A stretch of DNA of 64,000 nt, the filler included, from Stramenopiles sp. TOSAG23-6 (Eukaryota), in assembly GCA_900128565.1 (NCBI GenBank). It is 19 parts of 19 records of this genome, joined end to end, with 100 filler letters (N's around TTAATTAATTAA, not from the genome) between each part and the next. Parts side by side here need not be neighbours in the genome. Positions count along the whole stretch, not along the records: positions 6,831 to 10,139 come from LT637562.1; 18 more parts are not named here. One strand, 5' to 3'. Below, one piece after another: positions 184 through 62,673 of this stretch. Below the pieces are notes generated by a model. The model was not told where the DNA came from and ran no database searches. It saw only the letters and a list, made by a program, of their open reading frames with translations. The position numbers and the translations under genes were made by a program. The stretch's first letter is position 1. Each line of letters starts with the position of its first letter.

Positions 184-1382
184 ATTGGCGAAAGTAATTC
201 GCGAAATAATCGATTTTGGGTTAAAGGCAGTATTTACCGAGGTACTACTGAAATAGCAGTGTTTAATAGATTACATATCAATGGTAACGTATGTTTTATC
301 TTTTTTCAATTCCGATTTTTTTTTTTAGTACGAAATTTTGTACCTAACAAATTTTAAGTTTTTTTTTTGAAATATTTTTCCGAAATACATGCTATTTACC
401 GTTTATCTCGCCCATTTGCAAAGTTTCTTTTTGAGAAAGTTTTAAAGCATGAATCTTCATCACCCTGTGGTCAATACCAAGCTCTAGATACTGGTATTTT
501 TATGTATTTTTTTGGGGTCATTTCTCATTCATTTGTTCCATTTCTTTCATATTGGAATCGCAAACGTATGTTTTATTTTTTTTTCAATTTCGAATTTTTT
601 TTTTCGTACGAAATTTTGTACCTAACAATTTTTTTTTTTTGAAATATTTTTCCAAAATACATGTACAGTTTATATGGCAACCATTAAATGCAGAGACAAA
701 AACGACTACATACCTTACATCAAATGAATGCTTTACGAGGAAAGTTTTATTTGGCAGAAATATAATTTTGCAAGAAAATTTAAACTCTACAGATGATAGT
801 GCGGCTATTGGGGGATGGTTATTGAAAAGAAAATTACGCCTATGGACATCGAACTATTTTCGAATTAGTAAAGATTGTGTGGAATGCTACGTATGTTTTT
901 TTTTTCATACGAAATTTTGTACCTAACAAAAAACAAAAAACAAAAAACAAAAATTCAAACGTGTACTATTTTTTTTTTATTTTTTTTATAGGAAACTGTG
1001 TGGATTTGACGATATTTATTTTTTTGTCTACATTTTTTTATAGGAAACTTTGTACCTAACAAAAAATTTTAGAGTTTTTCTTTTAAATTTTTCCAAAATA
1101 TTTTTTTTTTTCGTATGAAATTTTGTACCTAACAATTTTTTTAAGATTTTTTTTGAAAATTTAAAATATTGTTGCACAATAAAGACATCAGAAATGGATG
1201 CAGAAGATCCATTTATTCTACCTCTTAGTAAATATGATATTAAAAAAATGAGCTCTCCACCCGTTCAAAAAAAATGTCGGATTTGCTTATCAAGTGGAAA
1301 AGAGCTTATGGCTGTTGATGTCACACAAGCACATTTATGGGTGAAGTCAATCACAAAACAATGGAATCTCTGTCATGATTGA
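184..1382 (+). CDS. Multi-exon gene fragment with probable C-terminal PH domain
   Basis: Exons are separated by family introns (289-390, 566-662, ~891 onward). The C-terminal part GGWLLKRKLRLWTSNYFRI...AHLWVKSI has a PH-like signature. Confidence 0.5.
289..390 (+). other. Family intron, GT-AT (102 nt)
   Basis: GGT AAC|GTATGTTTT...GAAATACAT|GCT ATT TAC joins the 139 and 367 ORF frames. Confidence 0.7.
566..662 (+). other. Family intron, GT-AT (97 nt, no AG dinucleotide inside)
   Basis: GCA AAC|GTATGTTTT...CCAAAATACAT|GTA CAG TTT ATA TGG. Confidence 0.7.
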
Positions 1383-1791: not shown

Positions 1792-3317
1792 TTATTCTTT
1801 GATCTCTGTCGCTTTGGTGGTCTTTGTCGTACATATTTAGTACGAACATGACCATCTGGCACAGAACTGTCCACCTTAAATCCATGTACAATGTATGCAT
1901 TGTGAAAAAATATTTTAAAATTTTTTTACCAAAAAAAAAAAAAAAAATTTGTTAGGTACAAAATTTTCTATAAAAAAAAAACAAATTCGAAATTCATGAT
2001 GAAAATATACATCCTCCATGAGCTGACATTTTCATATGAGGATGGGTTCGATTTTGTATAACTTGATAAGGTCTAAGCCAACACTCCTTCAACTCAACAT
2101 CGATAGCTTGTTTATTTTCTCGGAGCTGTAAATGTAATTCAGATAATGCATTTATTTTTGGAAAATATTTAAAAAAAAAAAAATTAAATTTGTTAGGTAC
2201 AAAATTTTTTTACNNNNNNNNNNNNNNNNNNNNNNNNNNNNNNNNNNNNNNNNNNNNNNNNNNNNNNNNNNNNNNNNNNNNNNNNNNNNNNNNNNNNNNN
2301 NNNNNNNNNNNNNNNNNNNNNNNNNNNNNNNNNNNNNNNNNNNNNNNNNNNTTTTTTTTTTTTTTATATATAAAAAAAAAAAAAAAAAAAAAAATTCAAA
2401 AATAAAAAAAAAAATAAAAAAATAAAAAAAAAATAAAAAAATTCAAAAATAAAAAAATAAAATAAAAAACGTACATTGCGTAAGTATGGATAACAAAAGT
2501 TAAACATTGTTATTGGATCAAATTCACTTGCAATAATAAGACTATCGACTCCTTCAAATAAACATTGTTCAACTCTTTTTTCATCATACTTTGCTCTTTG
2601 AGGTGTACCAGGAGGAAACTTTTTGAATTTTTTTTTATTATGTTGTACATCTTTTTCAGTTTTATTATTTTGTTTAATACTAGTATCATCATCATTTTGT
2701 TTAATACTAGTATCATCATCATTTTGTTTAATACTAGTATCATCATTTTTTACACACCCTGCACTAGGAGGAGGAAGAAAATATTTACAATTTTTACTAA
2801 AAACATCAAAAGGAAAATTCAAAATTGTTTTTTTCCGATCTTCTGAAAGATTTAAAGCCTCCACAAAAGCGGTGGGAGCTCCTTTATAAAAAGCATTCAG
2901 AACGTTTCCAAAACCACCAAGGCGATATGCGACGGAACCATGTATTTTGGAAAAATATTTCNNNNNNNNNNNNNNNNNNNNNNNNNNNNNNAAAAAAAAA
3001 AAAAATTTTTAGGTACAAAATTTTCAAAAAAAAAAAAACGAATTTGAAAAAAAATTAAAACATACAGCAACGAGACCTTGACAACTTTCCACTACTAAAA
3101 TATTTGAACTTGGTTTACAGTTTGAATATGATAATAATTGTGCTAAATTGTCCCATCGTAATCCTTGAATCTTACGCGAATCACGAAGAAATTGATACTC
3201 ACAAAGCGTTCTCGGCGTGCAGCGACACACTCGAATACGTAATACATATTTTTTTTGCTTCTTTTTTATATATTTTTCTTGTGAAAATCTGGTTTTACTA
3301 GCAAATGTTTGACTACC
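1792..3317 (-). CDS. TRM6: tRNA m1A58 methyltransferase non-catalytic subunit TRM6 (5'-truncated, multi-exon)
   Basis: Spliced translation TFASKTRFSQEKYIKKKQKKY...CQGLVA|GSVAYRLGGFG...ECWLRPYQVIQNRTHPHMKMSAHGG|YIVHGFKV matches Gcd10/TRM6 motifs. An internal N gap may hide an exon. Confidence 0.88.
1895..2010 (-). other. Family intron, GT-AT (116 nt) in TRM6
   Basis: GGA GGA T|GTATATTTTC...CAATGCAT|AC ATT GTA gives GGYIVHGFKV; no AG between branch motif and 3' end. Confidence 0.85.
2940..3065 (-). other. Family intron, GT-AT in TRM6 (contains an N gap)
   Basis: GTT GCT|GTATGTTTT...AAAATACAT|GGT TCC GTC gives GLVAGSVAYRLGG. Confidence 0.8.
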
Positions 3318-7460: not shown

Positions 7461-9095
7461 ATGAGTCGTTTCGCTAATGTTGTTTCCTCTAAATTACGTA
7501 TCGGTCGGTTCTGTAGTGCATGTAGACAAAATAAAGTATTTCAATTCCGGTCTCTTGGTAGCGTAGTAAAATACCCTCCTCCTCCAATGAAAATGTCACA
7601 AATAGGGAATAACATAAATAGAAATAAGAAACACAATAAGAAAATGTCGGATTCGTTATCTTCAAAGGAACGAACAATTTTAAAACACAATATTGTTCTT
7701 AACGACGTCAATAGTGATTACTGTCGTTCTAGTCAAGAGTGCCAATACATTATTGACAAGTTAGCACCAAAAGCTGGAAAAATACAGAGTACACGTATGT
7801 ATTGTAATCTTGCAAAAATGCTTCTTTTAGAAGGCGACATAAATGCCGCTAGAAATGTCGTATCTTCTCATATATCATCACTGGCTATAGAGTCCAGTAT
7901 TTCATCAGGTACAGATTTTTGTACGAAAAAGTTATTATATCTTTTTGACAATGGAGAATTACAGAAGTTTAGGATTTCTTCAATATTAAAATGGATAAGT
8001 GATGATAAAAAAAGTCTGTTTGGTGTATCTGGATTATTTTCCGCTTTGCAACTTCTTCATACGTTGCATTATAACAAACAAGCAAACACTGATTTGTACC
8101 GAATTTTGATTGATAAATTAGTCACTGTAGATAACTGTGAACGAAATAATATGTCTAACAATGCTACAACAAATACTAACAATGCTATAACAAATATTTC
8201 ATGGACAATTGAATCAGATTATGGTCTTTCATTTTCGATTTATAAAGCTTGTCTTCGAGAAAGAACTGATATACCTATAGGAAATAGACTACTCTCTCCT
8301 ATTATTTCCAACTGTACACATGTATGTTTTATTTTTTTTCAAATTTAATTTTTTTTCGTACGAAATTTCGTACCTAACAAAACAAATTAGATTTTTTTTT
8401 TGAAATATTTTTCCAAAATACATGAAGATGAACAAGGACTAATTCAATTTTCACATTCTGATGAAAGACGAGTCATTGACTTACATGGAGCTAGTCGTGG
8501 TGTTGCAGTTGTTAGAATTACGGATGTACTCATTCAACTACGTCGATATTTCCTTAACCCTAACAGAACTGCGAAATCAGTCATGCCGATATCATTCTTG
8601 GTCGGGTTAGGAATTCATAGTAAAGCAAAAGTAGATCCTGAAAGTAAACTAACATTTAAAGAAATAATTCTACCAAGTGTACTTCGGACGTTTCTTCATG
8701 AAGTCTTGAATCCACCTATTCAAACAAAAGTGAATTTTGAAAATCCAGCGGAGATTGATCTTAATACAACAGATATTGAAAATTGGATCAAGAGTGAACA
8801 AGCTACATTGTGGGAGAAAATTGTCGTCAATTCGTCAGATTTATATAATAGTTATGTAAATGTCACACATTCTGATCAAAAGAAAAGACTAGCATTATTG
8901 TACCAAGAAAAACAGAAATGGGATTCTAAATATGGAGATGGTATGACGTCTACTACATTATATACAAATGATATAAATCCAAAAAGAATGTCTATAACAA
9001 ATTGTAGGAAAAAGTCATCTTCATCATTTGTTTTTTCTCAGTTTCTGAAAAGTATCGAAGAAGGAAAGCAAATAGCTAGAGAAAAACATTTGTAA
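7461..9095 (+). CDS. Smr/MutS2-domain protein, two exons (7461-8321, 8424-9095), possible mitochondrial presequence
   Basis: VIDLHGASRGVA...FLVGLGIHS is an Smr signature; the GT-AT intron 8322-8423 joins NCTH|EDEQ in frame. Confidence 0.7.
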
Positions 9096-9192: not shown

Positions 9193-10139
9193 TTAATCTT
9201 CATGAAAATATCCAGTACCAAGATCATCTTCAAGACCCTCAGCCCATCGAGGAATCCAATCACTATGTATTTTAAAAAATATTTTACATTCAATATTTTT
9301 GTTAGGTACAAAATTTCGTATGAAAAAGAAATTCGAAATTGAAAATAATAAAACATACACAGTCATTTGGGGAAGGATTAAAACAACCTTTTTTCCTTTT
9401 CCAAAGTATTAAAGAATTCTTAAAAAATGGTGACACTCGAACAAATTCCCATTGTTCTGTGATTGGTATACCAGCCAACTCTGCATCTCTCTCATACAGG
9501 ACTTGTACTTCTTTAGCTACTTTAACTAAATCTTCCCACAAACCATAACCCGAGTCCATAAATAAAAATATTGCACCAACTTTTGCGTTTGTAAATAATT
9601 CACGAAGAAAGCTAAATTTGTTATTAATAATCGCTATTCTATTTTCTATTAAAACATAGTTGCATACAAACAAATCGAATGTAGATGCATTGCTTTCCAA
9701 CTGGGTATTTATTGCATCTTCCAATGATTTAGTGACATCACAAGAAGCAAAGTTCATTTCTCCCCAGCAATAATGAGTGCCTTCAATAAAATGCCTAATC
9801 TTTCGTAAATTAAATCCATGTAGAAGTGGTTCTAAATTGGAAATATCTTCCTCCATTAATGGCAGAGCATTTTCATCTAATGTATATGCCTTACGTTCAG
9901 TGTCATAAAACTTTCTTGCCTTCATAGACTGATTCAATAGCTTTGTACACAATTCCCAACCTGGTTCATATTCAAACACTGTAGTATCAAGAACATTTGG
10001 TCTCATTCGACCACCATAGCCTAAGAAATACGCTAACATGATGTAGCCTAACGCATCAGATCCACCGGCTCCGCCTATTGAAGCCATACGCACGCGCGGA
10101 AGCTCAAGTAAAGTCTGGCGGAGTTCTACACAGACATCT
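9193..10139 (-). CDS. Putative SAM-dependent methyltransferase-like protein (3' part)
   Basis: Motif I-like ASIGGAGGSD and FDLFVCNYV; the GT-AT intron 9265-9358 joins the last exon SDWIPRWAEG...*. Confidence 0.55.
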
Positions 10140-10647: not shown

Positions 10648-10683
<36 letters not shown>

Positions 10684-13547
10684 TTTTTAAAAAAAATTTT
10701 TTTCCAAAAAAAAAAAAAAAAAAAAAAAAAAAAACAATTTTCAATGAAACAAATATTTTGACTTTTTTTTGTTTTTTTTGTTTTTTCAAATATTTTTTCA
10801 CAATGTATCTAGTGATTCAATTAGGTGGTTATATTAAAAATGGTATCGATGGAATCACAGTCACTTCTAATGATGATTTTGATGATAATTTTCGTTTTCA
10901 TGAAAATTCATCCTATTTAAATGATAAGAATAATGATGATTTTACTTTTGATTTTAATCATGATTTTAAACATAATGATTATTTTAATGATTATTTTCGA
11001 TTTCTTGAAAATAATAATGATTTTAATAATGATGATGATTTTAATAATGATGAATTTCGATTTGCAATAGAAAAAAAGGAAAAAATGCTTGTTCGAATAA
11101 ATGGTGTTATACTATCAGCAGGAAGTTCAATTGAAAGACAAGTACAGAAAAGCGTTATACAACGATTAACAAAAAAAAAANAAGAAATTCAACAAGAAAT
11201 CAAAGAACAATCAGAAGAGGGTAATGGTAATGGTGATGATGATGGTAATGATGATGGTAATGGTAATGATGATGGTCATGGTGATGATGAAGAAGATAAT
11301 GAAGATAATGAAGCTAATGATGATAATGATGATAATGATGATAATGATGAAGAAGAAGATGATAAAAAATTTCAATATGCAATAATGACACATAATTTCC
11401 CACCAATTGGTAAAACGTATGAAAATCAATTAAAAGTGAACAAAAATGATATAATTTTCATTCTTGAAGAATATAAAAGTGGAGCTAGTGAAAGATGGAG
11501 TCTGGCAATGACAATTGATAAAGAGAAAACAGGTTATGTAGCACAATCATTTTACAACATTATAACAAAAGAAGAAGCAGACATAAAATTAGATGAGGCT
11601 AAACAAGAAAAAGCAGCAATGGTTATTCAGTCTGCTTATCGTGATCGTCAAGCAAAAGCAAAACAAAATGAAGCAGCTATGGTTATTCAGTCTGCTTATC
11701 GTGATCGTCAAGCAAAACGAAATGAAGCAATCGCAGCTGCAGAACAAGCAGCTAATGATTCCGACACCGCTGGTGGTGGTACTGGTGGTGGTACTACAGA
11801 TGGTGGTGATTCCGGTAGTACAGATGGTGCAGATGCTGGTGGTAGTACACTACCACAAAAAACAAACCAACCACAGGCACCTGGTGATTCCGGTGATTCC
11901 GGTAGTACAGATGATACAGATGGTGATGGTGATGATGATGAAGAAGAAGATAATGATGATGAAGAAGAAGATGAAGAAGAAGAAGATGATGAAGAAGAAG
12001 ATGATGATGAAGAAGAAGAAGAAGAAGAAGGAGAAGAAGGAGGAGGAGAAACTACTCCTGTAGATGATGATGTTGATGTTGCTGATTCTCCAGCAGAAGA
12101 AGGCATTGGTGATGCTGATGGTGGTGAAGAAGGTGGTGGTGAAGAAGGCAAAGAATCTGTTGGCAATGCAGTTAGAACAGATCAAAAAAAAAAAGATGGT
12201 GTTGTAAATACAAAACGTATTCTTATTCTTGGAATGAGTTCTGGTGAGTATACACGGACACACCGACCTGATACGCCATTACGTGAGAGTTTCAATATTC
12301 CAGCGGATCAACATATTGAAATTTATTTCATTGATGATGTATGTTTTTTTTTTTTTTTTNAAAAAAATCGAATTTNTTTTTTGTTTTTGGTTTCATACGA
12401 AATTTTGTACCTAACAAATTTTTTTCAATTTTTTTTCAATTTTANTTTTTTTTTTTTNGTTTTTTTTTNGTAAAAAAATTTTGTATCTAACAAATTTTTT
12501 TTTTAGTAAATTTTTAAATATTTTTTCAAAATACATGGAACAGCTTCTGGTGGAGACGGTCCAGGTAAAGTGAAAGACAAAGCATGGTACAACGCTCGCA
12601 AGTCTGGATCTTCAGAGCCCGACACAATGGACAACAAGACAACACTTTTTGATTACATTGGCAAATTTGACAATTTACCAAAAGATTTTACAAACAATTT
12701 CTTTGATTTCATCTTAAATGATTGGTCGACAAGCAAATTTTTTCCTCCAGGATTTGGCCTTGTCCTTCAAAACTTACTACGACAAGGAGGCCAAATACAC
12801 ATGCAAGATATACTGCCAAAAGTGCCATATGGTTCAGGTCCCGGGGCGAGGTGTATGGATTCTAACCAAGAGAAGTTGCAACCTCCTAATCAATATGTCA
12901 TGTTATCTCAAACGATAGGTGGTGGACCTATTTACTGCATAGTAACAAATGATACGACAGTCTGGGATTTGAAGGTTGGAGTTATAACATTAAAAAACCC
13001 TGATCAATCAGCCACCAGCTACGATTCGATTATTGATATGGCAAACAATAGCAACTTACCAAATAATACTGTGGTGAAGGATATGAAGAAGAAGGTGGGA
13101 TTCATGTTTTTCCCAGGCACTCCTTTTACCGTCGGTGGAATGTCCTTTGAGGATTTTACAAAAGGTGGTGGTATGAATCAACGAATACCTTTTGAAACAT
13201 ATCCATTGGCTTCTTCTCGTTTAAAAAAAGCCGGTCATGAAGCGAAAAATTATGTTCAATTTGCTGCTACTGTAGATGGTGCTGCTACTGGTGGTGCTGC
13301 TGTTGATGGTGATGCTGCTGGTAAGAATCCAGCAAAACCAAATGCAGCTGCAGAACAAGCAGCTAATGATTCCGACACTGCTGGTGGTGGTGGTGGTGGT
13401 GATGCCGGTGATGCCGGTGGTGGTGCTGGGCCTGCTGGTGATGGGTCTGCTGGTGCTTCTCCAGCAGTAGAAGAAGAAGAAGAAGAAGATGCTGGTGATG
13501 GTGATGGTGATGCTCCTCCAGCAGTAGAAGAAGAAGAAGAAGAAGAA
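10240..13547 (+). CDS. Multi-exon fragment: SH3 domain, two IQ motifs, acidic low-complexity tracts (copy 1)
   Basis: SH3-like YAIMTHNF...QLKVNKNDII...RWSLA...KTGYVAQSFY and AAMVIQSAYR x2; the GT-AT intron 12339-12536 joins IDD|GTASGG in frame with the 12570 ORF. Confidence 0.75.
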
Positions 13548-14055: not shown

Positions 14056-14091
<36 letters not shown>

Positions 14092-17463: not shown

Positions 17464-17499
<36 letters not shown>

Positions 17500-20363: not shown

Positions 20364-21398
20364 NNNNNNNNNNNNNNNNNNNNNNNNNNNNNNNNNNNNN
20401 NNNNNNNTTAATTAATTAANNNNNNNNNNNNNNNNNNNNNNNNNNNNNNNNNNNNNNNNNNNNTAAATGTATGTTTTATTTTTTTTCAAATTCTATTTTT
20501 TTTCGTACGAAATTTTGTACCTAACAAATTTCAATTTTTTTTTTTGAAATATTTTTCCAAAATACATGGGTAAAGTAAAGAGACCAAAAGGAAGTGGCCG
20601 AATGAAACACAGATATGATTTCGATTTGTCATCACCAAAGACTGCGAAACGAAATTATATTCCAGAGTATAGAATCGAAAATGATAAATTTGCTAAAAGT
20701 TGGGTCAAATCACGAGCATGTATTTTTTTTTTTTTTTTTCAATTTTTTATTTTATTTTTTTTTCGTACGAAATTTTGTACCTAACAAACTTTTTTAGATT
20801 TTTTTTGAAATATTTTTCCAAAATATATATAAGCAGGCTGTTAGAGGATATATGCGTGCTGAAAGGGCGGATCGTAGGACTAAATTAAAGAGATATATGT
20901 ACGTTGTTTTAGTATGAATTTTTAGTATGAATTTTTAGTATGAATTTTTAGTATGAATTTTTTACTACACTTTGGAGTTCAATTTGTACCTAACAAAATT
21001 TGAATTTTTTTTTTCAATATGTTTCAACACTATTTGCCTAAAAGAGGAAGAAATCATAAATCAGAAATTGAATATTCTGGAGATAGTTCCAGTAGTGAAA
21101 GTGATTATTGAACCCTAACCCTAATCATAAATCAGAAATTGAATTTTTCTTATCTCTTTGTGTAAAACATGACTACAAAATAACTAAAAAAAATACAATT
21201 TTGTTTTTACTTGCAAATTTTATTTTTGAAAATGATATAAATATAATATAATAAATATGATATAAATGATATATATTTTTAAGTATACATTTTCTTCAAA
21301 TATTTTTGTTTTGTACAATGAATATTCAATATTTTCAATATTGTACACTTTGAAAAGCACGAAATAGAGTACGGAATTTTGGTACAAAGACTCTTTTT

Positions 21399-22286
21399 TT
21401 AATTGACAAGTTCAATAGATTTAATATTTTTAATTCCCTGTTGTTCAAGTCGATTCCTCATTTATTTTGGAAAAATATTTAAAAAAAAAAAAAAAAATTG
21501 TTAGGTACAAAATTTCCTATGAAAAAAAAAAATCAAAATTCAATTTTGAAAACGTACATTGTGTCCAAATCATTCGCAGAAATCCCAAGATCATTCTTAA
21601 TTTCTTCAACTGACTGGCTTCCATCGTCATATATGACTAAAACTCTTCGGCATTTATTTTGAAGAAATATGTAAAAACGTGAATTTTATGAGAATTTTTG
21701 AAAAAAAAAAAAAAAATTTTTGAAAAAAAAATTTTTTTTTGAAAAAAAAAAACAACCCTAACCCTAAAAACCCTAAAAACCCTAAAAACCCTAAAAACCC
21801 TAAAAACCCTAAAAACCTAAATTACAACAAATTCATAGTAAAAACCTACATGTTGTGTTCTCTAGCCAACCTTCACCTCCTGATATATGCCATGCATTCC
21901 TCATCATTAACTCGAAGTAATCATCATCGTCAATGGAGGCACTGATATCTCGATAATATTCGGCAAATTCATCGGGGGTGATTACACCACTCTTTTTTGT
22001 AGAAAAATATTTCAAAAAAAAAAATTGTTAGGTACAAAATTTCCTACGAAAAAATTTTTTTTTTCCGAAAAAAAAAAAAAAAAAAAAAAAAACATACATC
22101 ATCTTTATCCCACTGATGAGCAAAGTGTTGCAAAGCTTCTTCCTCGGTTTTTCTTCCCGATAAAACGTCCGGATGTTGTGAACAATCATAAATGTTTTTG
22201 ATATCTTCCAATGTAACTGTACCATCACAATTATTATCAAGTAAATTATATGCTTTTGTGACAAAAGACATTCTCCTTTCATTCAT
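21399..22286 (-). CDS. Calcyphosin-like EF-hand Ca2+-binding protein, 3' exons
   Basis: EF-hands DNNCDGTVTLEDI and DKDD|SGVITPDEF; SASIDDDDYFELMMRNAWHISGGEGW...NTT|CRRVLV. Introns 21992-22097 (GT-AG), 21652-21849 (GT-AT), 21460-21557 (GT-AT). Confidence 0.85.
21756..21820 (+). repeat. Telomere-like CCCTAA / CCCTAAAAA tandem array inside an intron
   Basis: CCCTAACCCTAAAAA followed by further 9-bp units. Confidence 0.8.
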
Positions 22287-22421
22287 GTATTTTAGAAAAA
22301 TATTTCAAAATTTTTTTTTTTAGTTTCAAAAAAAAAAAAAAATTTGTTAGGTACAAAATTTCGTACGAAAAAAAATTTAAAAAAAATTTAAAAAAAAAAA
22401 TTTGAAATTGAAACCGTACGT

Positions 22422-23710
22422 GTGTGAGGTATTCTTGTTCATGTACCATAAAGCAGTCAAAGACCATAAAACACTTCATAGCTAGACCTGGATACATGAA
22501 AAATATCACTGCATTCAATAAGGCAATTCCTTCATTTTTTGCACTTGATTTTGTGTATTGACTAAATCGTTGACCACAACATTTACAACAACATGTATTG
22601 TGAAAAAACACGAAATCACAAAAAACATCGTGAGGTACGAAATTTTTTAAATTGTATGAAAAAAAAGAAAATTTTTTTTAAATTTTAAACAAATTTGAAA
22701 TGAAAAAAAAGAAAAAATATTTCGTGTAAAAAAAAAAAAACATACATGTATACCCTAATAACAGCCAGATGATAAACACAAGAATCGATAGTATTGGCAA
22801 AATACAAAGATGAATATAAAAACCATTCGAAAAACTTGTACTTAAATTACACAAATCAACTGGTCCAATAATACCCGTCAAATCGATATTAATTGCACTA
22901 AATCCGCGATAAAAGTTTTTAAATTTCAACGGAAATGGCGCATTTACTGTGACATCAAGTTGAGTTAGAATTTGAAAATAAGATACTAAAAGCTTCAATA
23001 TACTACGGATATCCGTCAAGGCAATAAGCCATTGATTTGATAATAACTTCTTTAAAGCGTCTTTGGACTCTTTGGCTTGTGCAGCTGCACTCTTTGCCGT
23101 GCTCTTCACAGATGATACGGCATCAAGTGTAGCTTTACGCACAACTGCTGCACTATTTCCATCGCTTTGAAGTGTAGACTCAGCATATGCAGATTGTTCC
23201 ATTAAGGCTCCTCCTGCATGTTCCAGATATCCCAAAGATCTACTTTTTTCATCATCTTCCATTGCAGCAAGATCATCCGCATCTGTCCATTGTGGAGCTG
23301 GTTTTGACATACAATAGCACGATAACATACACCACAATAATAACAAAAATAATATTAATAAAATACCAGCAGCAGGAGAAGTTTCCGCACAATCTCTCTG
23401 TTCACATTTCATACCAGATTTATGTATTTTGGAAAATATTTCAAAAAAAAATTCTAAAAAATTTGTTAGGTACAAAATTTTTATAAAAAAAAAAAATTCG
23501 ATTTTTTTTTTTTTTGGTAAAGAAAAAAAAAAAAAATAAAACATACATAATATCCTTTTGTATCATCACACAATACACACAAAATGCCTTTCCGTCCAGT
23601 AGCACAATTATTCCAAGATGTATTATTTTTTCCACCACCAAGGCATGTTCCATCGAGAGGACATTTAACAATCTCCAACGTCGATTCATATCCAGTCTTC
23701 AACACGACGT
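22422..23710 (-). CDS. Cys-rich extracellular, multi-pass membrane protein fragment (multi-exon)
   Basis: CATGRKGILCVLC, a TM segment, LKLLVSYFQI and YPGLAMKCFMVFDC are typical of protist large polytopic membrane proteins; interrupted by family introns. Confidence 0.65.
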
Positions 23711-24166: not shown

Positions 24167-24472
24167 TTTTTTTTTTTCCCGGAAAAAAAAAAAAAAAAAA
24201 AAAAACATACATAAACTTCGAGAGCGTCAAGAAACATTTCATCGCAATCAAAATAATTTGGGTTTAGATTATCCTCGGTATATGTTTTCAAGTCTCTTAA
24301 ATTCTCTGGAATATTTCTGTTTGTAAAGAATATATCAATATATTGTGAAAAAATATTTCAAAAAAAAATTCTAAAAAATTTGTTAGGTACAAAATTTTTT
24401 TACNAAAAAAAAAAAAAAAAAATTTACTGTAAAAAAAAAATTTACTGTAAAAAAAAAAAAAATAAAACATAC

Positions 24473-27086: not shown

Positions 27087-27388
27087 TATGTATGTTTTAA
27101 TTTTTTTTTTTGTATGAATTTTTTTTTCGTACGAAATTTTGTACCTAACGATTTTTTTTTGAAATATTTTNNNNNNNNNNNNNNNNNNNNNNNNNNNNNN
27201 NNNNNNNNNNNNNNTTAATTAATTAANNNNNNNNNNNNNNNNNNNNNNNNNNNNNNNNNNNNNNNNNNNNGGAACTGTCCAATTTATGTACGTTTTCAAA
27301 ATTGAATTTTTTTTTTTTTTTTTTTTTTTTCGTACGTAATTTTGTACCTAATGATTTTTTTTACTAAAAAAAAAATTCACAGTACATG

Positions 27389-29081
27389 TTGAACGGTTGG
27401 CGTGAAATGTCACTTTCATTGGCTGATCCATATATATTGCCACCAAATCCTCTCCAACCATACATGTCAATTTTGCTTCTTGAGGATAGAAACATGTATG
27501 TTTTTTTTTTTTTTTAAATTTGAAATTGAATTTATTTTTTTATAAAAAGTTTGTACCTAACAAATTTTGAAATATTTTTGAAATATTTTTCCAAAATACA
27601 TTATATTAGATTCTTTTCCATTTCATTCATCCGATAATTTAAGACAACTCGTAATTAGTTCGGATCCAATGAAAAATTTCCACGATTTACAATTGGAAAC
27701 GGGAATACCTTTGGCACAATTGTATCGACTTGCAGCTCATTTGTTATACTGGGGTAAAGCTAGAGTTATTAAAAAAATAAGTAAAGATAGTATATATAGA
27801 ATGGATTTATCGGCAACTGCTGACACTGGGGGTTATGTATGTTTTACTGTTTTTTTTTTGGATGAATTTTTTTTTCGTACGAAATTTTGTACCTAACGAT
27901 TTTTTTTGTTTTTGCAATATTTTTCCAAAATACATGGAAGTTCTAGTGTTGCGACTGCCTTGGGTCTTGAACGTGCAAGTGCTATTTATCCTACGGAAAT
28001 TCTAGTTCCAACATCCCCTTTACTTGCAAAGTTTACTCTTGTACATTTTCATTATGAATTTCAATATGTTTTTTTCGTAGAAAATTTTGTACCTAACGAT
28101 TTTTTTTTTCGTAAAAAAAAAAAAAAATATTTTTCACAGTACTCAGTTTCCCTGAATACCCTGGTGAATTTTTTTTCGTAGAAAATTTTGTACCTAACGA
28201 TTTTTTTTTTCGTAAAAAAAAAAAAATATTTTTCACAGTACTCAGTTTCCCTGAATACCCGGGTGAATTTCTGCATACACTTTTACAGCGTTTTGCTGGA
28301 GGTAAGCGAGTGTCGGAATTATTGTCTGAGCTTAGCGATCGCCAACAAGTTTCATTTATTAATATGTTGGTTTGGTTGTTGCAGAATAGGTGTACGTTTT
28401 CATCAGTAATTTTAATTTTTTTTTGGTACGAAATTTTGTACCTAATGATTTTTTTTTTTTGGATGTATTTTTTTATTTGTCATTTCAATTTTTGTTTTAT
28501 ACCAAATTCAATTACCTAACAAATTTCAATAAAGGTAAAAAATATTTTCCCAAAATACATGTCTAATTGAAGTGAACGAATATATTCATTTAAGAATAGA
28601 GCCATCTGCTCGAAGTCGTGGTATGTCTTTTGATTTTGGAACACGAAATATGAATAATGATAGGAAATTGAACCATTCTATAGAGAGACAAATTCGAAGA
28701 TTTGAAACAAATATGAAACTAACTGGATCTCGTGTGTCTCGTTTGTTCTGGCAAATGCTCCTAGGCATATCAAATAAACGTAATAGAGGTAGAGATCAAA
28801 TGAAAAATATGAGTTCTGGTAATAATAAATATGATAGTCGTGTGCAGTCAACTTCGAAAAAAGGTGCACGTCAACAAAGTGAGGCTACAAAAAATATGAA
28901 AACTTCGCTAGATGGATTTTCATCAGGATCGTTTAATGGCTCTCGGGATTTTGAAGAAATTATGTGGCGAGAAGGCGTTAGTCGTGCAGAGCTTATGCTT
29001 GTACTAAATAAGTATAAAGGAATTCTTTTAACAGTGCGACATCCAGAGCCGTGCATTATAAGCAAACCAATAATAAACTGA
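27389..29081 (+). CDS. NPRL3: GATOR1 subunit NPRL3-like, 3' exons
   Basis: PYMSILL, TGIPLAQLYRLAAHLLYWGKARVI, MLVWLLQNR|CLIEVNEYI and FNGSRDFEEIMWREGVSR match Npr3/NPRL3 motifs; several GT-AT introns. Confidence 0.8.
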
Positions 29082-29155: not shown

Positions 29156-30508
29156 TCATCTTCGGAATTTACTGGAACTTTTTCTTAAAATTCTACGAAT
29201 TTTCAATAAATTGGATAATTCTTCAGTCATCTTTTGCATTTCATTGCGCTTTTCATCTATAGTAACTAGTATTTTTGGTTTACCCAGACGACCACGATGA
29301 ATACGCCATGAAATTAAATGTTGTTTCATAAATTTTGAAAAACTATCTTCGATCTCTTGTAGAATTTGTTCATGTTGTCTAGCCGCAGATAGTCTAGCTC
29401 TAGACCATACTAATTGGACATTTTCCAATGAAATAAAATCTGTATTTTCTTCTACATTATTTTCAGTATCTTTAGGAATACAAGGACCACAATCGTACAT
29501 GGAGATGAATGGTGAAGTATACAATACTGGTTGGGCAGTCACAAGTGCTTTGCTATGATCTGAAAATGTTTTCGGACTTTTTGGCATTGGATTATACTTT
29601 GAACTTTGAAAATTATTTTTTGTGTTATTGCTCATTATTGAAGCACTCCTATCCAGACCAATACTTCTAATATCACTAATTACTGGAACCCCAAGATTTG
29701 TTGGAATAATTTTGCTTACACCACCGAATTTTTTACCCGCTTCTAAGAGGGATTTCCAAGGGGTACTCATTCCATCATTTGCTGGCTTCCACGTGTATGT
29801 ATTGTGAAAAAATATTTTACATTCAAATATGTTGTTAGATACAATTTTTGGTACAANANAAAAAAGGTAAAAAAGTCAATTTTGAAAACGTACATTGAAT
29901 GATAAATTCAGGTAAAACATTTGCTGGCTCAAATATCAAGTATTCTTCTTGTGCTGGTGAATACATTGCATCAAATGCTGATGTAGATTTCATTGTTGGG
30001 AACCCTTTATAGTCTCTAGATGTAACGAAAAGTCGTTTTATAATAACTCTACATAGTGCTATATATCTTACTTTGTCTTTAGTACTATTTACATTGGAAG
30101 TATTTCCTGTAGTTTTATTCTCTAATAAAGCAACTCTTTCGTCATCTAGAGTTGAGTATCGTGAGAACATTGATGGGAAAGTGACAGGATGACTTTTGTT
30201 TACCTGATCTTTTGCATATGGCAATGTATCATCTTCTTGACTGTTTCCTGCACCATACCAAGATTTTCGAAATATAGTTTTTTTTTCCTTTTTTATTGAA
30301 GAAACATTCTCATCCTTTGTATCTACAGCGTCTTTGTTCATTTTAGAACCAAACCCATACACAATAACATGTTCTAAACTTTCAGGAGCAATAGTGCAGA
30401 ATAGACCTTTTACTTTGCCCTTCTCCATTAATCCCACACGTGTCTGAAAATCATCTAAAGATATTGAATTTTCAACTTTAAAAACATTTAAAACATTGAA
30501 CCCTTCCA
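29156..30508 (-). CDS. Protein with PARP-catalytic-like segment, last two exons (29894-30508, 29156-29796)
   Basis: IALCRV...EEYLIFEPANVLPEFIIQ|Y resembles the end of a PARP fold; the GT-AT intron 29797-29893 joins CAA T|AC ACG in frame with the 29156 ORF. Confidence 0.6.
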
Positions 30509-33592: not shown

Positions 33593-33924
33593 TTAAGCAT
33601 AATGTAATTTTCCATTCATCACATCATTCAAATCACCTGGATTAATGTTACTACCTGATACTACACAAACAATTCTTTTACCAGTTACTTTTTGAGATAG
33701 TACAGCAGCTATACCTGCACATGTATTTTGGAAAATAATTCAAAAAAAATCGTTAGGTACAAAATTTCGTACGAAAAAAAATTCAAATTGAAAAAAAATA
33801 AAACGTACAACCCGAAGTTTCGCAAACGAAACCAAATGAATACATTAACTTTGTTGCTGCTACTAAATCTTCATCCGTTACGAGGACAACTTGATCAACA
33901 AATTCTTTGCAATGCGAATACGTA
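33593..33924 (-). CDS. PLP-dependent threonine dehydratase / serine racemase family, last two exons (not in ORF track)
   Basis: Spliced CKEFVDQVVLVTDEDLVAATKLMYSFGFVCETSG|CAGIAAVLSQKVTGKRIVCVVSGSNI matches the fold-type II C-terminus; intron 33721-33807. Confidence 0.82.
33721..33807 (-). other. Family intron, GT-AT (87 nt, contains no AG)
   Basis: TCG GGT T|GTACGTTTT...CCAAAATACAT|GT GCA GGT preserves ExSGxAGIAA spacing. Confidence 0.85.
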
Positions 33925-35294: not shown

Positions 35295-37220
35295 ATGCAG
35301 CGTCGTGGAAGTACACGCCAAATAGCCGTCGGATGGCTAGAAAAGAAGTGTAAACGTATGGGGTATGTTCGGCGTTGGATGCTTTTAAACTCACAGGGCG
35401 AACTTTTGCAAGCAAAGGACGAAAGAGGTAAAAAACGGCGTCTTCTAGTGTCATTGACACCAGGTTGTGGTTTACATGCACGTGCTCTAGAAGGTAAGAG
35501 TTCATCATTATATATCGGTTCAACAAATCCAAATATAAAAACTCGTATTTTTCTGCGTGCGGTTGATGAAGCTGTCCGCGATGAATGGCTTATTGCAATT
35601 CTTATTTCTCTTGGTGAAGTTAGAAAAGGCGGTGGTAATATAAATGGTTTGAGTATGGGTAATGTCACGTCACAATTAGTTCATGCGTCAGGATCACTAT
35701 CTGTGACAACAAATTGGTCAAAAGTTAGATTAGCTAATAGTAATGGAAAACTTAAGCTATGTAATAATGCGAATTTGACGCCCATAAATTCGGATAGCAA
35801 AAATAATGATGAGTGTGGAAGTGATAATGATGATGAGAAATCTCCAGTTTCGGCGTATTGGGCTAGAGTTCGAAGAGCATCAGCGCGAGGAGAGTTTGGT
35901 CCTGGATATAATACAGAAAACGGAGAAAATACACAAAATACAAAAAATACACAAAATACACAAAATACACAAAATATACAAAATATACAAAATATACAAA
36001 ATATACAAAATACACAAAATACACAAAATACAAAAAGTCAAGGATTATCCTCCAATCTATCCTCCAGTGCCCCTCAAAAAAGTCTCGATATTGACGCCAA
36101 TAAAAGTTTGGGCCCAAAATCAGAGTCACAAGAGAATCTTATTTTAGATAATTTATTTGATGAAAAACAAAATCCTTCAAAGAACTCAAAATCAATAGAT
36201 AACCCTAACCCTAATACAGATAATTCATTAGGGTTAGGGTTCCTCCAGGACGTCCAAGAACTTGATTCATTTTTATCTGCTTCGGAATTAAGGGTGAGAA
36301 GAGATTCCAAGTTTAAAAAGAAAGTTTCAATTTATTCTCCTCATCTTTCGTCTAATACAGAATTGGCAATTACTGCTGCATGTACGTTTTCAATTTCGAA
36401 TTTCGAATTTTTTTTTTTTTTTGTACGAAATTTTGTACCTAACAATTTTTTTTTTTTGAAAATATTTTCCAAAAAATATTATTAGATAGCCGCCATAGAG
36501 CAACATCACTACGCGAATTTTCATTAGATGACACTTCATCTGCAAAATTATCATCGAGAACAAATCAGAAAGAACCTGATAAATATTCTAATGATAACCC
36601 TAACCCTAATTTTAGTCTTCCTTTGAGACAATACCCATTTGAAATTAGTAAATTATCAAATGGAGAAAATGAATCTGTGCCTGCTGATCTCAAGTCCTCT
36701 GTTCGACGGCGAATATTTGTATATTATACACTTTCATTTCAAATTTATTTTTTTTTTTCTTTTTTTTTTCGTACGAAATTTCGTACCTAACAGATTTCAA
36801 TTTTTTTTTCGAAATATTGTTCACAATATTTGGTGCTCTTCGAGATGCATTACACGGAATAGTCAACGCCAATACTACTGATAAAAGTTCTCCTATATTA
36901 GTTTTGGATAGTGATACGCATTTTATTATGAGAACTGTCTGCACATACCAAGAAGTTATTTTGTTAGGTTTCGTGTCAATAGAAATATTAGGTAATATCC
37001 AAGATAAAGTAAAATGGAAAAAGTATAAAAATTTTATATACTTTATTTCACCGATTATTTTTGATACATCAAAATCTTCATCACACTATTTGTCATCCAT
37101 TGATACTCTACTTGCTTTGTATCAAATAAGTACAAAAAATGCGAAAAATAATAAAAACCCAAACACATCGCATGGATCGATACTCATTTTGTTTACAGAG
37201 CCTTCATCTGTTGATGGATG
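35295..37220 (+). CDS. PH-domain protein fragment, multi-exon (downstream exon linkage uncertain)
   Basis: VGWLEKK...YVRRWMLL...FLRAVDEAVRDEWLIAI is a PH signature; family introns at ~36382 and ~36720. Confidence 0.65.
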
Positions 37221-37607: not shown

Positions 37608-38053
37608 TCTCATCATGTCCGTAGGTTTTCTTGGGTCAAGTTCCCCAACAATGGCAACATTTTCTCCTCTAACTACATTTATTTTGGAAAAATATTTCAA
37701 AAAATCTAAAAAAAATTGTTAGGTACAAAATTTCGTACGAAAAAAAAAAATCGATTTTTTTTTATCGGAAAAATAAAAATAAAACATATATATAAACCCA
37801 AAGGAATGTCAGCATAGTTGCGGCCTGCATATCGACGCTCGTACGTATCTTCAAGTACAAAATTCGTAAATTGATCAAAACTACGTAACAACCCTACTAA
37901 GTGACGGCCATCTTGCAATATAAGAATGACTTTTTTATCTAACTGTTCCACAAGACTGCATGTTCCAGGAAGTGTCGCAGGAGTACGCGGAGGTGGTAAA
38001 ATAGGTGGCATCATAGGCGGTATCATGTTCCCTACTGGCATTTCCACAGACAT
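37608..38053 (-). CDS. LSM1: Sm-like protein LSM1 (3'-truncated)
   Basis: SLVEQLDKKVILILQDGRHLVGLLRSFDQFTNFVLEDTYER...DIPLGLY|VVRGENVAIVGELD. Confidence 0.92.
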
Positions 38054-43026: not shown

Positions 43027-43538
43027 ATGAGACCAAACGAAATGAATACAATGTCACTTTATGAACGATTTCAGAGTACACCTTGTCTCCGAAATGCTCT
43101 GTTGTGGGGATTAACCTGCGGTACACTTGGTTTTATCCATCGAGGTGTTTGTAATGCTAGATTGGCTCAACAAATTGGAACAGGAATAATTGCAGGAAAT
43201 TTTGGAGCTGCCGGATCTTTTTATACATGCAGAAAGACATTCCGTGAGAAACACATTGAATATGTACGTTTTTTTATACCTAATGAATTTAATTTTTTTT
43301 TCGTATGAAATTTTGTACCTAACAAAAAAATTGATTTTTACTAAAAAAAAAAAAAATTGATTTTTACTCAAAAAAAAAATAATTGATTTTTTACTGATTT
43401 TTACTCAAAAAAAAAAATAATTGATTTGTACTGATTGTTACTCAAAAATAAAAATAATTGACATATGGATCAAAAATACATGTTCGACTAATGGAACTCC
43501 GCAAAGCATCCGGAGAAAAGTTTGAACAGAAAACTCAT
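43027..43538 (+). CDS. COX20-like small membrane protein (two exons seen)
   Basis: FQSTPCLRNALLWG...GSFYTCR pattern; a GT-AT intron joins HIEY|VRLMELRK. Confidence 0.55.
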
Positions 43539-43644
43539 GTATGTGATTTTTTTTCAATTTCGAATTTATTTTTTTTTTTCGTACGAAATTTTGTACCTAA
43601 CAAAATTTTAATTTTTTTGTTGAAATATTTTCATAAAATTACAT

Positions 43645-62570: not shown

Positions 62571-62673
62571 ATGGATTATGAAAAAATATTTCAAAAAAAA
62601 AAAAAAATGTTAGGTACAAAATTTCGTATGAAAAAATAAATTCGAAATTGAAAAAAATAAAAATAAAACATAC

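What the first reader, a model, noticed from the sequence alone, without database searches (positions are those of the whole stretch)
8320..8423. MITE-like architecture: terminal inverted repeats and an AT target-site duplication that supplies the acceptor
Seen: the typical copy reads AT|GTATGTTTT...AAAATAC-AT|. ATGTAT and ATACAT are reverse complements, extended by TTTT/AAAA. Most copies are preceded by exonic AT, i.e. the element GTAT...ATAC sits between two ATs. In GlmS (43793-43897) the flanks are AG and AG, giving a canonical intron with the same body. Established: introners in Micromonas and Aureococcus are non-autonomous DNA transposons that co-opt a splice site from the target-site duplication. 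Inference: insertion at AT with a 2-bp duplication, then splicing out one copy, restores the mRNA exactly and explains the AT acceptor.
Basis: partly seen in the sequence, partly recalled or inferred. Interest (0 to 1): 0.85.

Follow-up and report, generated by a model that had tools for sequence, protein, structure and literature searches.

The report
Invasive intron family with AT acceptors
A roughly 100-base repeated element sits as an intron in many unrelated genes of this AT-rich marine protist and is cut out at a GT start and an unusual AT end that looks like a copy of the two bases at the insertion site.

Summary
The element at 8322-8423 belongs to a dense family of homologous introns: 70 profile hits in 64 kb, all in ordinary cellular genes.

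- **Flanks:** the exon ends in AT before 26 of 40 conserved 5' ends, against an 11% background. The two bases after the ATAC-like 3' motif are AT in 23 of 29 cases.
- **Frames:** cutting from GT to two bases past ATAC keeps the reading frame in 23 of 29 testable copies (P=5e-7).
- **RNA:** one metatranscriptome contig shows a copy removed with only non-AG cut registers possible; GT..AT is the only one that starts with GT.
- **Duplication test:** the exon's last two bases equal the intron's last two in 24 of 32 complete copies. This includes AG/AG once and TT/TT twice (0.28 non-AT matches expected by shuffling, P=4e-4).

This supports a 2-bp target-site duplication that becomes the acceptor. 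Three things remain unproven. The inverted termini are short. No empty site was seen and no transposase was found. RNA cannot yet separate the GT..AT cut from shifted registers.

I rate it a new variant of the known introner kind. My searches found no paper describing it for this lineage.

The parts
8320..8321 (+). Exonic AT, the upstream copy of the putative 2-bp target-site duplication; last two bases of codon CAT
8322..8423 (+). The finding's own element, a 102-nt intron GTATGT...ATACAT in phase 0; 289 open codons upstream and 223 downstream
   Evidence: (E=1.4e-18)
8322..8330 (+). Five-prime splice site GTATGTTTT carried by the element
8358..8373 (+). Internal palindrome GTACGAAATTTCGTAC; predicted hairpin just before the CTAAC motif
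   Evidence: (I1)
8371..8378 (+). TACCTAAC, a branch-site-like motif conserved in most copies but absent from the spliced copy at 21652-21849
8389..8390 (+). Internal AG, 12 nt after CTAAC. In this copy its use would stay in frame, so frame alone does not exclude it. In 10 of 13 copies with such an AG it would shift the frame
8402..8421 (+). Conserved 3' motif GAAATATTTTTCCAAAATAC; the cut lies 2 nt after it
8422..8423 (+). Terminal AT of the intron: the acceptor, and the downstream copy of the putative duplication
21460..21557 (-). Copy C, 98 nt, AT|GTACGT...AAATAAAT|. An RNA contig joins 21557/21458. Only the registers TA..TG, GT..AT, TG..AA, AT..AA and AA..TA fit
   Evidence: (X8 record 21)
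21652..21849 (-). Copy B, 198 nt, degenerate, with TTTTTAGGG repeats inside, AT|GTAGGT...AATAAAT|. It is spliced in RNA contigs of X8 and X9, but the junction reads ..ACATGT|CGAAG, one base off the GT..AT prediction (TGT and TGC are both Cys)
21992..22097 (-). Copy A, 106 nt, family body, AT|GTATGT...CTACAAAAAAG|. It is spliced at a canonical AG 7 nt past the CTAC motif. The join restores the EF-hand loop DKDDSGVITPDEF
22285..22419 (-). Copy with AC upstream and AT at its end. Its 3' end splits the start codon AT|G of the EF-hand gene. The RNA contig carries AT before GAATG
43793..43897 (+). Copy in the GlmS/GFAT gene with AG/AG flanks: a canonical GT-AG intron with the family body
43539..43644 (+). 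Copy ending ..AAATTACAT| directly before the conserved GFAT block (H)AGLVG. There is no AG between CTAAC and the exon. The contig looks chimeric here: a different gene lies upstream
46955..47092 (+). Copy with TT upstream and ..ATACTT| at its end; frame kept (52 and 32 open codons); CCCTAA repeats inside
36719..36831 (+). Copy with TT upstream and ..ATATTT| at its end; frame kept (92 and 173 open codons)
28041..28144 (+). Copy with TT upstream and ..GTACTC| at its end; frame kept (48 and 124 open codons). It is followed by a tandem duplicate of its 3' half plus a mini-exon
289..390 (+). Complete copy, AC/AT; phase 0, codon AAC (AAT would also be Asn); frame kept
566..662 (+). Complete copy, AC/AT; frame ambiguous
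12339..12536 (+). Composite copy (two bodies), AT/AT; frame kept (385 and 337 open codons)
20469..20567 (+). Complete copy, AT/AT, inside a start codon: ..taaAT|intron|GGGTAAAG
20720..20828 (+). Complete copy, AT/AT; 3' motif ATAT
27288..27387 (+). Complete copy of the GTACGT subfamily, AT/AT
27496..27601 (+). Complete copy, AT/AT; frame kept
27837..27935 (+). Complete copy, AT/AT; frame kept
28392..28560 (+). Composite copy, GT/AT; frame kept
43264..43481 (+). Long copy, AT/AT, in a small COX20-like ORF; frame kept
46536..46633 (+). Complete copy, AT/AT
46724..46823 (+). Complete copy, AT|GTACGT, AT/AT; the frame is kept once the 5' site is placed at 46724 rather than 46720
51168..51260 (+). 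Degenerate copy, AT|GTTGGT...GTACAT|; frame kept
62571..62673 (-). Complete copy, AT/AT (3' motif ATCC); longest frames do not fit
33721..33808 (-). Complete copy, TT/AT (mismatch); frame kept
29797..29893 (-). Complete copy, AT/AT; frame kept (211 and 212 open codons)
24338..24472 (-). Complete copy, AT/AT (3' motif ATAT); longest frames do not fit
23422..23546 (-). Complete copy, AT/AT; frame kept; its internal AG would shift the frame
22593..22745 (-). Complete copy, AT/AT; frame kept
9265..9358 (-). Complete copy, GT/AT (mismatch)
2940..3065 (-). Complete copy with an N run inside, CT/AT (mismatch); frame kept. The exon reading GLVA|GSVAYRLGG favours keeping the upstream dinucleotide
1895..2010 (-). 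Degenerate copy, AT|GTATAT...AATGCAT|; frame kept
37677..37789 (-). Copy whose first base is A (ATATGT), AT/AT; 3' motif ATAA

Best explanation
The element is one copy of a very abundant, recently spread family of introner-type sequences, that is, short non-autonomous mobile insertions that survive in genes because they are spliced out. The host is an AT-rich marine stramenopile.

**What the element carries.**
- Its own 5' splice site, GTATGT or GTACGT followed by TTTT.
- An internal hairpin.
- A TACCTAAC motif.
- A T-rich stretch.
- A conserved 3' motif, TTYCAMAATAC.

**How it works.** It inserts with a 2-bp target-site duplication, usually at AT. The spliceosome cuts before GT and two bases after the ATAC-like motif, so the downstream copy of the duplication becomes the last two bases of the intron. 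One copy stays in the mRNA and the coding sequence is restored. The acceptor is therefore AT in most copies, AG where the target was AG, and TT where it was TT.

**Shown.**
- The family and its density.
- Sense position in ordinary genes.
- Frame-preserving length.
- Removal from RNA at a non-AG site.
- Co-variation of the two dinucleotides.

**Inferred.**
- The duplication arises at insertion.
- The mobile form is DNA.
- The acceptor is chosen by its place relative to the 3' motif, perhaps a nearby branch point, rather than by its two bases.
For: **Family and setting.**
- 18 pattern matches against 0 in shuffles, and 70 profile hits in 64 kb.
- Flanking ORFs are unrelated cellular genes: PDK, poly(A) polymerase-like, GFAT, EGF repeats, IP3-receptor N-terminus, a phosphatase, tesmin CXC, Arm repeats and NPRL3. 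An EF-hand protein is read from the translation only.
- An independent seawater metagenome run lays 6381 contigs on one 3.3-kb contig, almost all of them on the elements.

**Flanks and frames.**
- AT is upstream in 26 of 40 copies against an 11% background, and AT is terminal in 23 of 29.
- The frame is kept in 23 of 29 copies that have at least 25 open codons on both sides (one third expected, P=5e-7).
- 16 of 29 copies with a recognisable core have no AG at all between the core and the 3' end. In 10 of the 13 that do, using it would shift the frame.

**RNA and homology.**
- The 504-nt RNA contig X8 record 21 joins four exons of the minus-strand EF-hand gene into one 161-codon ORF that ends in a stop.
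- It removes three family copies. For copy C only non-AG registers fit.
- GFAT homology starts at H-AGLVG, so that acceptor lies within ..tta|c|a|t|gct.

**Duplication.** u=d in 24 of 32 copies, with 3 non-AT matches against 0.28 in 200000 shuffles (P=4e-4). One further half match is TT/TC.

**Precedent.** Micromonas introners take one splice site from a 3-nt duplication. Fritillaria non-canonical introns take their 3' site from a duplicated exonic TAC (PMC11282704, passages).
Against: **Duplication test.**
- 8 of 32 pairs do not match: AC/AT 3, GT/AT 2, CT/AT, TT/AT and TT/TC.
- The co-variation rests on three or four loci.
- I placed the ends of the 32 copies by hand.

**Assembly.** The assembly is fragmentary, and at least one contig seems joined through an element. 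Some flank pairs may therefore not belong together.

**Mobility.**
- No empty site appeared among the joints listed for the DNA run (15 of 54 shown).
- No transposase domain was found in the 30 ORF pieces scanned.
- Beyond the AT, the inverted termini are only GTAT/ATAC plus a T/A run. They are absent in copy C, which is still spliced.

**RNA junctions.**
- The copy B junction differs by one base from the GT..AT prediction. This needs either a silent SNP or an AG..GC cut.
- At copy 22419-22285 the RNA shows AT where the window's upstream exon has AC.
- All the RNA junctions come from one study: X8 and X9 for copy B, X8 alone for copies A and C.
Confidence: 0.62

Rival explanations
1. There is no duplication. 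The whole intron GT...ATACAT is the mobile unit and carries its own AT end. It lands preferentially after AT or AY, for example by reverse splicing into transcripts followed by reverse transcription, or by a target preference of the insertion machinery. The few AG and TT ends arose later by mutation.
For: - The terminal dinucleotide is far more uniform (AT in 28 of 32) than the upstream one (AT in 21 of 32).
- 8 of 32 pairs mismatch.
- No empty site and no transposase were found.
- The AG end in GFAT could have been selected because AG is the standard acceptor.
Against: - Both TT ends and the TC end sit behind TT exons, and the AG end sits behind AG. Independent mutation should match the exon only 0.28 times in this set (P=4e-4).
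- The excess of upstream variants is expected if the upstream copy is exonic and drifts at silent sites. In copy 289 (phase 0) AAC and AAT both encode Asn. For the other two AC/AT copies the frame is not secure.
Confidence: 0.2
2. The cut register is shifted by two bases. The intron is ATGTATG...ATAC, an AT-AC intron, handled like the known AT-AC classes. The downstream AT is exon.
For: - Where both flanks are AT the mRNA is the same in either register, so neither frames nor the RNA contig can tell them apart.
- AT-AC ends are an accepted intron class; GT-AT, AT-AA and similar pairs occur among minor-type introns of Physarum (preprint 10.1101/2020.10.12.336362, passages).
- At 22285 the RNA carries AT although the window's upstream exon ends in AC.
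Against: - In this register the 5' end would vary (AT, AC, TT, GT, CT, AG) while GTAYGT just inside stays conserved.
- The RNA-verified copy C ends ..ATAA in this register, not AC.
- The AG/AG copy would become AG..AC instead of a plain GT-AG intron.
- At 3065 the exon reading with the upstream dinucleotide (GLVA|GS) looks more plausible than GLVD|GS (weak).
- The 5' sequence is not the minor-type RTATCCTT.
Confidence: 0.1
3. These are old, immobile introns that look alike because of shared splicing signals or homogenisation. Alternatively, the sequences are removed from DNA rather than from RNA.
For: - GTATGT and a CTAAC motif are ordinary splicing signals.
- No insertion polymorphism was seen.
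Against: - Similarity runs through the whole ~100 nt, including palindromes and spacers, in unrelated genes.
- Density is about one per kb.
- The elements are present in DNA contigs of independent metagenome runs. They are also present in a second assembly (L001).
- Their absence from an RNA contig therefore points to removal at the RNA level.
Confidence: 0.03

Closest known systems
Introner elements of Micromonas pusilla (and, from recall, of the stramenopile Aureococcus, which that review does not name)
   Same: Thousands of near-identical short introns in unrelated genes. The element supplies one splice site and the target-site duplication supplies the other. Short terminal inverted repeats are present (PMC11282704, passages).
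   Different: There the duplication is 3 nt (Micromonas) and yields a canonical AG. Here it is 2 nt, usually AT, and yields a non-canonical acceptor. Body sequence and host lineage differ.
Non-canonical, MITE-derived introns of the tunicate Fritillaria borealis
   Same: Transposon-derived introns with inverted termini. Their 3' splice site comes from a duplicated exonic motif and is not AG, and the host spliceosome tolerates it (PMC11282704, passages).
   Different: The Fritillaria ends are mostly AG-AC and AG-AT behind an exonic TAC. Here the 5' end is a conventional GTATGT and only the acceptor is unusual. The host is a protist.
Invasive non-canonical intronic elements of Amoebophrya
   Same: Repeated introns with direct repeats of a few bases at the boundaries and inverted repeats, in a marine protist (PMC11282704, passages; PMC7789003, search listing only).
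   Different: Amoebophrya boundaries are highly variable and have 3-5 nt repeats. Here one family dominates, with a fixed GT start.
Minor (U12-type) introns, including the transposon-driven expansion proposed for Physarum
   Same: Tolerance of GT-AT and other 3' ends. GT-AT makes up 17% of the non-canonical minor-type introns in Physarum. A TE with a 2-bp (TA) duplication is the proposed source (10.1101/2020.10.12.336362, passages). GTATGTTTT differs from GTATCTTTT at one position.
   Different: The 5' motif is not RTATCC/RTATCT. The TACCTAAC motif lies 31-47 nt from the 3' end in 25 of 29 copies with a core and further in 4 composite or long copies, not 10-12 nt. No snRNA could be examined.
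Nonconventional introns of euglenids
   Same: Non-canonical ends, duplication-like repeats at the junctions, and complementary intron ends (PMC11282704, passages).
   Different: Euglenid excision depends on pairing of the ends. Here the RNA-verified copy C has no terminal pairing in its predicted fold.

Membership tests
Introner (transposon-like intron family) | Many introns of near-identical sequence in unrelated genes of one genome | tested here: met
   18 matches against 0 expected; 70 profile hits; host genes differ
Introner (transposon-like intron family) | Removed from mRNA so that the reading frame is restored | tested here: met
   An RNA contig removes three copies and gives one ORF. 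The frame is kept in 23 of 29 copies
Introner (transposon-like intron family) | Target-site duplication at the boundaries, one copy serving as a splice site | tested here: met
   u=d in 24 of 32 copies; 3 non-AT matches against 0.28 expected, P=4e-4. The sample is small and the ends were placed by hand
Introner (transposon-like intron family) | Evidence of mobility: insertion polymorphism, empty sites or an autonomous partner | tested here: inconclusive
   No element-sized joint in the DNA run among the 15 of 54 joints listed. No transposase domain in 30 ORF pieces. Only 64 kb could be read
MITE (miniature inverted-repeat transposable element) | Terminal inverted repeats recognised by a transposase | tested here: inconclusive
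   A 10-nt arm pair at 90% that includes the flanking bases. Inside the element there is only GTAT/ATAC plus a T/A run, and this is lost in degenerate copies
Tc1/mariner-type MITE | TA target-site duplication (recalled from general knowledge) | tested here: not met
   The flanking dinucleotide is AT, not TA. A TA reading would need the 8-nt target ATGTACAT and would delete 6 nt from each mRNA
U12-type (minor spliceosome) intron | 5' motif RTATCCTT / RTATCTTT | tested here: not met
   The 5' ends are GTATGTTTT, GTACGTTTT and degenerate forms
U12-type (minor spliceosome) intron | Branch motif about 10-15 nt from the 3' end, and presence of U11/U12/U4atac/U6atac | not testable with these tools
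   TACCTAAC lies 31-47 nt from the end in 25 of 29 copies with a core, and 56-197 nt in 4 composite or long copies. A TTCCAAAAT stretch lies close to the end, but no branch data exist. No Rfam match in the window and no genome is held
Euglenid-type nonconventional intron | Excision depends on base pairing of the intron ends | tested here: not met
   Copy C is spliced but its predicted fold has no terminal stem, z=+0.8

The most novel reading that the evidence does not exclude
In this uncultured stramenopile lineage nearly all introns descend from one invasive element. The spliceosome has come to choose the acceptor by its position, two bases past a conserved 3' motif and perhaps a fixed short distance from a branch point inside TTYCAMAATAC. 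It accepts AT, AG, TT or TC at that place and skips AGs that lie between TACCTAAC and the end. That would make GT-AT the main intron class of an organism. It would also explain why one public gene model of this organism reads into an element copy.
Probability: 0.35. Interest if true: 0.85.

Novelty: new variant of a known kind. Interest (0 to 1): 0.68.

Why it matters
Introners are the best current explanation for bursts of intron gain. Cases where the duplicated target gives a non-AG acceptor are few (Fritillaria, Amoebophrya).

Here the 5' end is fully conventional and only the acceptor is odd. The same body is found with AT, AG, TT and TC ends, which amounts to a natural series of acceptor variants. 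With transcriptome reads, this would let one test directly how a spliceosome chooses a 3' site without AG.

There is also a practical side. The one public gene model compared here translates into the element: P0001 ends in MYVFISISNLFFHTKF, which is intron sequence. If other models of this organism miss these introns in the same way, its gene catalogues would be incomplete or wrong until this intron class is modelled.

Tried and rejected

- No whole genome is held for the window.

**Scans for the 20-nt core in public collections.**
- Metagenome contigs: one locus, L001, with one AT/AT copy that keeps the frame.
- Viral contigs: none.
- Prokaryote genome contigs: one hit, L002. It is a chance match with no element ends around it.

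**Other negative searches.**
- Rfam at gathering score: no match in the window.
- Transposase search: no transposase domain in the 30 ORF pieces scanned with Pfam.
- Empty sites: none among the joints listed for DNA run X3. X3 and the RNA runs leave many exon bins of the contig uncovered, which proves nothing.

**RNA structure.**
- Terminal 4-bp stems are predicted in 5 of the 7 AT/AT or AG/AG copies folded.
- z-scores run from -2.4 to +0.8.
- The RNA-verified copy C has no terminal stem.
- I therefore dropped pairing of the ends as the splicing determinant.

**Models rejected.**
- A TA duplication (Tc1/mariner-like). It needs an 8-nt palindromic target and a 6-nt loss per insertion.
- DNA-level excision like ciliate IES. 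The elements are abundant in DNA contigs.

**Corrected readings.**
- A first frame analysis placed the 5' site of one copy at 46720. The GTACGT subfamily showed the true site at 46724.
- Copy 22097 first looked like AT/AA. RNA shows it uses an AG 7 nt further on. It was left out of the 32 pairs.

**Also left out of the 32 pairs.**
- Copies whose 3' end I could not place: 19/23, 891, 20982, 36382, 51419.
- 40240, which runs across an N run.
- All copies cut by contig ends.
- Copies on duplicated contigs.

**Literature.**
- No paper holds both 'introner' and 'MAST-3'.
- None of the 10 papers listed for 'introner' / 'marine stramenopiles' / 'single amplified genome' holds 'introner' (16 papers met the two-term threshold, 10 were listed).
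- The 2025 introner survey has no 'MAST' or 'stramenopile' in its main text. Its supplements, which list species, were closed.
Full report
**What the window is.** The 64 kb are not one locus. They are about nineteen contigs of roughly 3.3 kb each, joined by N44-TTAATTAATTAA-N44 linkers. Some contigs occur two or three times: 10240-13547 = 13648-16955 = 17056-20363, and 54346-57618 = 57719-60991. G+C is about 30%.

A PDK-like ORF at 44241-45590 (minus strand) is identical to public protein P0001, apart from a 22-residue stretch that the public model removes and replaces by one residue. P0001 carries the label 'eukprot:GSMAST32.ASY1.ANO1.496.1 assembled CDS'. Most of the other named hits are stramenopiles, at 51% identity or less. 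I read that label as a MAST-3-type marine stramenopile; this is my reading and was not tested. No whole genome is held.

**The observation.**
- The pattern GTATGTTT, then 40-70 nt, then ACCTAAC occurs 18 times against 0 in shuffles.
- A profile of 13 copies finds 70 hits, 64 outside the duplicated contigs. That is about 1.2 per kb of unique sequence.
- Many contigs begin or end inside an element, as expected of a repeat that breaks assemblies.
- A second 5' form, AT|GTACGTTTTCA, is common.
- Flanking ORFs encode unrelated cellular proteins.

**Flanks.**
- Of 40 occurrences of GTA[TC]GTTT outside duplicated contigs, 26 follow AT. AT precedes 11.2% of all 6174 GT in the window.
- Of 29 occurrences of the T-rich 3' motif, 23 are followed by AT, 2 by TT, 2 by TC, 1 by TA and 1 by AG.

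**Where the intron ends.** I placed both ends of 32 complete copies by hand. The copies left out are listed under Tried and rejected.
- Cutting from GT to two bases past the ATAC-like motif links the longest open frames in 23 of 29 copies that have at least 25 open codons on each side (one third expected, P=5e-7).
- The frame rule is crude. It scores the RNA-verified copy C as a failure.
- 16 of the 29 copies with a recognisable TACCTAAC core have no AG between the core and the end. In 10 of the 13 that do, that AG would shift the frame.
- In the finding's own copy the internal AG at 8389-8390 stays in frame, so frame alone does not exclude it there.
- In GFAT, homology to solved structures begins at H-AGLVG. 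The acceptor of copy 43539 therefore lies within the last three bases before GCT, and no AG is there.

**RNA.** I laid three metatranscriptome runs and one independent metagenome run on contig 20464-23769. This contig holds eight copies.
- X8 record 21 (504 nt) lies in four pieces: 22286-22104, 21991-21848, 21649-21557 and 21458-21393.
- Joined, the pieces give one ORF of 161 codons that ends in a stop and contains the EF-hand loop DKDDSGVITPDEF.
- Copy A (22097-21992) is removed at GT..AG. Its AG lies 7 nt past the CTAC motif.
- Copy C (21557-21460) is removed so that only the registers TA..TG, GT..AT, TG..AA, AT..AA or AA..TA fit. With GT at the 5' end this is a GT-AT intron. Its 3' motif is ATAA rather than ATAC, so the AC is not required.
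- Copy B (21849-21652) is degenerate and lacks TACCTAAC. It is removed in contigs of both X8 and X9.
- The copy B junction reads ACATGT|CGAAG, whereas the GT..AT cut predicts ACAT|GCCGAAG. The difference is one silent base (TGT and TGC are both Cys). Either the RNA population carries a SNP there, or this copy is cut as AG..GC. The RNA contig differs from the window at 6 other places.
- X8 and X9 belong to one study. The junctions of copies A and C rest on one contig.
- The metagenome run lays 6381 contigs, almost all on the elements. The family is therefore abundant in an independent sample.

**Duplication or not.**
- The exon's last two bases equal the intron's last two in 24 of 32 copies.
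- AT dominates both sides, so the informative cases are the rare ends: AG behind AG (43793), TT behind TT (46955 and 36719) and TC behind TT (28041). All of these keep the frame.
- Shuffling the ends among copies gives 0.28 non-AT matches on average, and 3 or more in 4e-4 of 200000 trials.
- The mismatches are AC/AT three times, GT/AT twice, CT/AT, TT/AT and TT/TC.
- In the AC/AT copy with a secure frame (289, phase 0) the exon codon AAC and its AAT form both encode Asn. This fits silent drift of an exonic copy. For copies 566 and 22419 the frame is not secure.
- The same pattern argues, though weakly, that the upstream copy is the one kept in the mRNA. So does the more plausible GLVA|GS reading at 3065.
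- The RNA at 22285 carries AT where the window has AC upstream. The contig's 12 further bases could not be seen, and the alignment ends where the window's upstream exon would have continued. The upstream exon in the RNA is probably a different sequence.

**Inverted termini.**
- In young copies GTAT pairs with ATAC, and with an AT duplication the complementarity extends to ATGTAT/ATACAT.
- This is short for a transposase site in a 30% G+C genome.
- It decays in old copies.
- It is absent in copy C, which is spliced. It is therefore not an RNA requirement, and its role at the DNA level is unproven.

**How the acceptor may be chosen.**
- AGs 10-12 nt after TACCTAAC appear to be skipped.
- Copy B lacks that motif altogether.
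- The stretch TTYCAMAATAM next to the cut is the best-kept 3' feature.
- My inference is that the acceptor is set by position relative to this motif, perhaps by a branch point a few bases upstream.
- This resembles distance-based 3' choice in minor-type introns, where GT-AT ends are known. However, the 5' motif here is of the GTATGT kind, not RTATCC.

**Comparison with what is known.** From the passages of the review PMC11282704 returned:
- Micromonas introners have a 3-nt duplication that supplies AG.
- Fritillaria MITE-derived introns have AG-AC or AG-AT ends, with the 3' site made from a duplicated exonic TAC.
- Amoebophrya elements have variable ends.

The Physarum preprint proposes a TE with a TA duplication as the source of minor-type introns.

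The present family shares the logic of these cases. It differs in pairing a fully conventional 5' site with a 2-bp duplication that gives AT.

- No paper in the searched library joins 'introner' with MAST-3 or with marine stramenopile single-cell genomes.
- The 2025 survey does not mention them in its main text. Its supplements were closed.
- A paper on single-cell genomes of uncultured stramenopiles has only two passing uses of 'intron' in the passages I saw.
- Public model P0001 runs into an element copy and ends in translated intron sequence. That intron was therefore not recognised.

**Verdict.** The transposon mechanism, the exact cut register and the rule for choosing the acceptor remain open.

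Noticed in passing
window 1-64000; linkers listed: The window is a chain of contigs of about 3.3 kb, apparently sorted by length, joined by N44-TTAATTAATTAA-N44. Three contigs are the same locus with N at different places (10240-13547, 13648-16955, 17056-20363), and two more are identical (54346-57618, 57719-60991).
   Followed up: partly
window 44241-44290 (minus strand); protein P0001: The public gene model for the PDK-like gene is identical to the window but reads through the 5' part of an element copy. Its C-terminus ..MYVFISISNLFFHTKF is translated intron. It also removes a 22-residue in-frame stretch as a GT-AG intron, which may be spurious.
   Followed up: partly
window 43027-43644: The contig looks chimeric at element 43539. 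A small COX20-like ORF, with its own long copy at 43264-43481, lies upstream. Downstream the sequence starts in the middle of the GFAT isomerase domain, at the conserved block HAGLVG. Assemblies of this genome may join loci through the repeated introns.
   Followed up: partly
15 places, for example 21756-21815, 36203-36239, 44015-44026, 47043-47072, 50601-50612: Short telomere-like units, (CCCTAA)2 or (TTAGGG)2 and a run of CCCTAAAAA, are scattered through the window. Some lie inside element copies. From a hand comparison with ORF coordinates (no call checked this), some seem to lie inside ORFs, where they would read NPNPN. At 36203-36239 two units face each other as an inverted pair around 13 nt.
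   Followed up: no
window 20467-20570 and 22284-22290: Two copies sit inside a start codon, between AT and G, so the ATG exists only after splicing.
   Followed up: partly
window 28054-28260: A tandem duplication of about 105 nt holds the 3' half of an element plus about 20 nt of exon. This creates a second element-like unit with a GTGAAT start.
   Followed up: no
window 3418-6730: This contig has about 43% G+C, against about 30% elsewhere. It is filled by one 1103-codon ORF with a weak DUF7524 match and no element copy. It may come from another organism or a different genome compartment.
   Followed up: no
L001 2475-2578 (minus strand): A metagenome contig from another assembly holds one AT/AT copy that keeps the frame. 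About 90 nt downstream there is a conventional-looking GTAAGT site. The contig shows no DNA similarity to the window (blastn, E<=1e-5). It may come from a relative with fewer copies.
   Followed up: partly
window 20464-20574, 22018-22128, 23461-23571 (table 2): Poly(A) metatranscriptome contigs match the elements in large numbers (1405 contigs in X9, 996 in X10). Possible causes are unspliced transcripts, excised introns or DNA carry-over.
   Followed up: no
window 37677-37789 (minus strand): One copy begins ATATGT instead of GTATGT and ends ..ATAAAT. It is either dead or an AT-start intron. Open frames on both sides fit.
   Followed up: no
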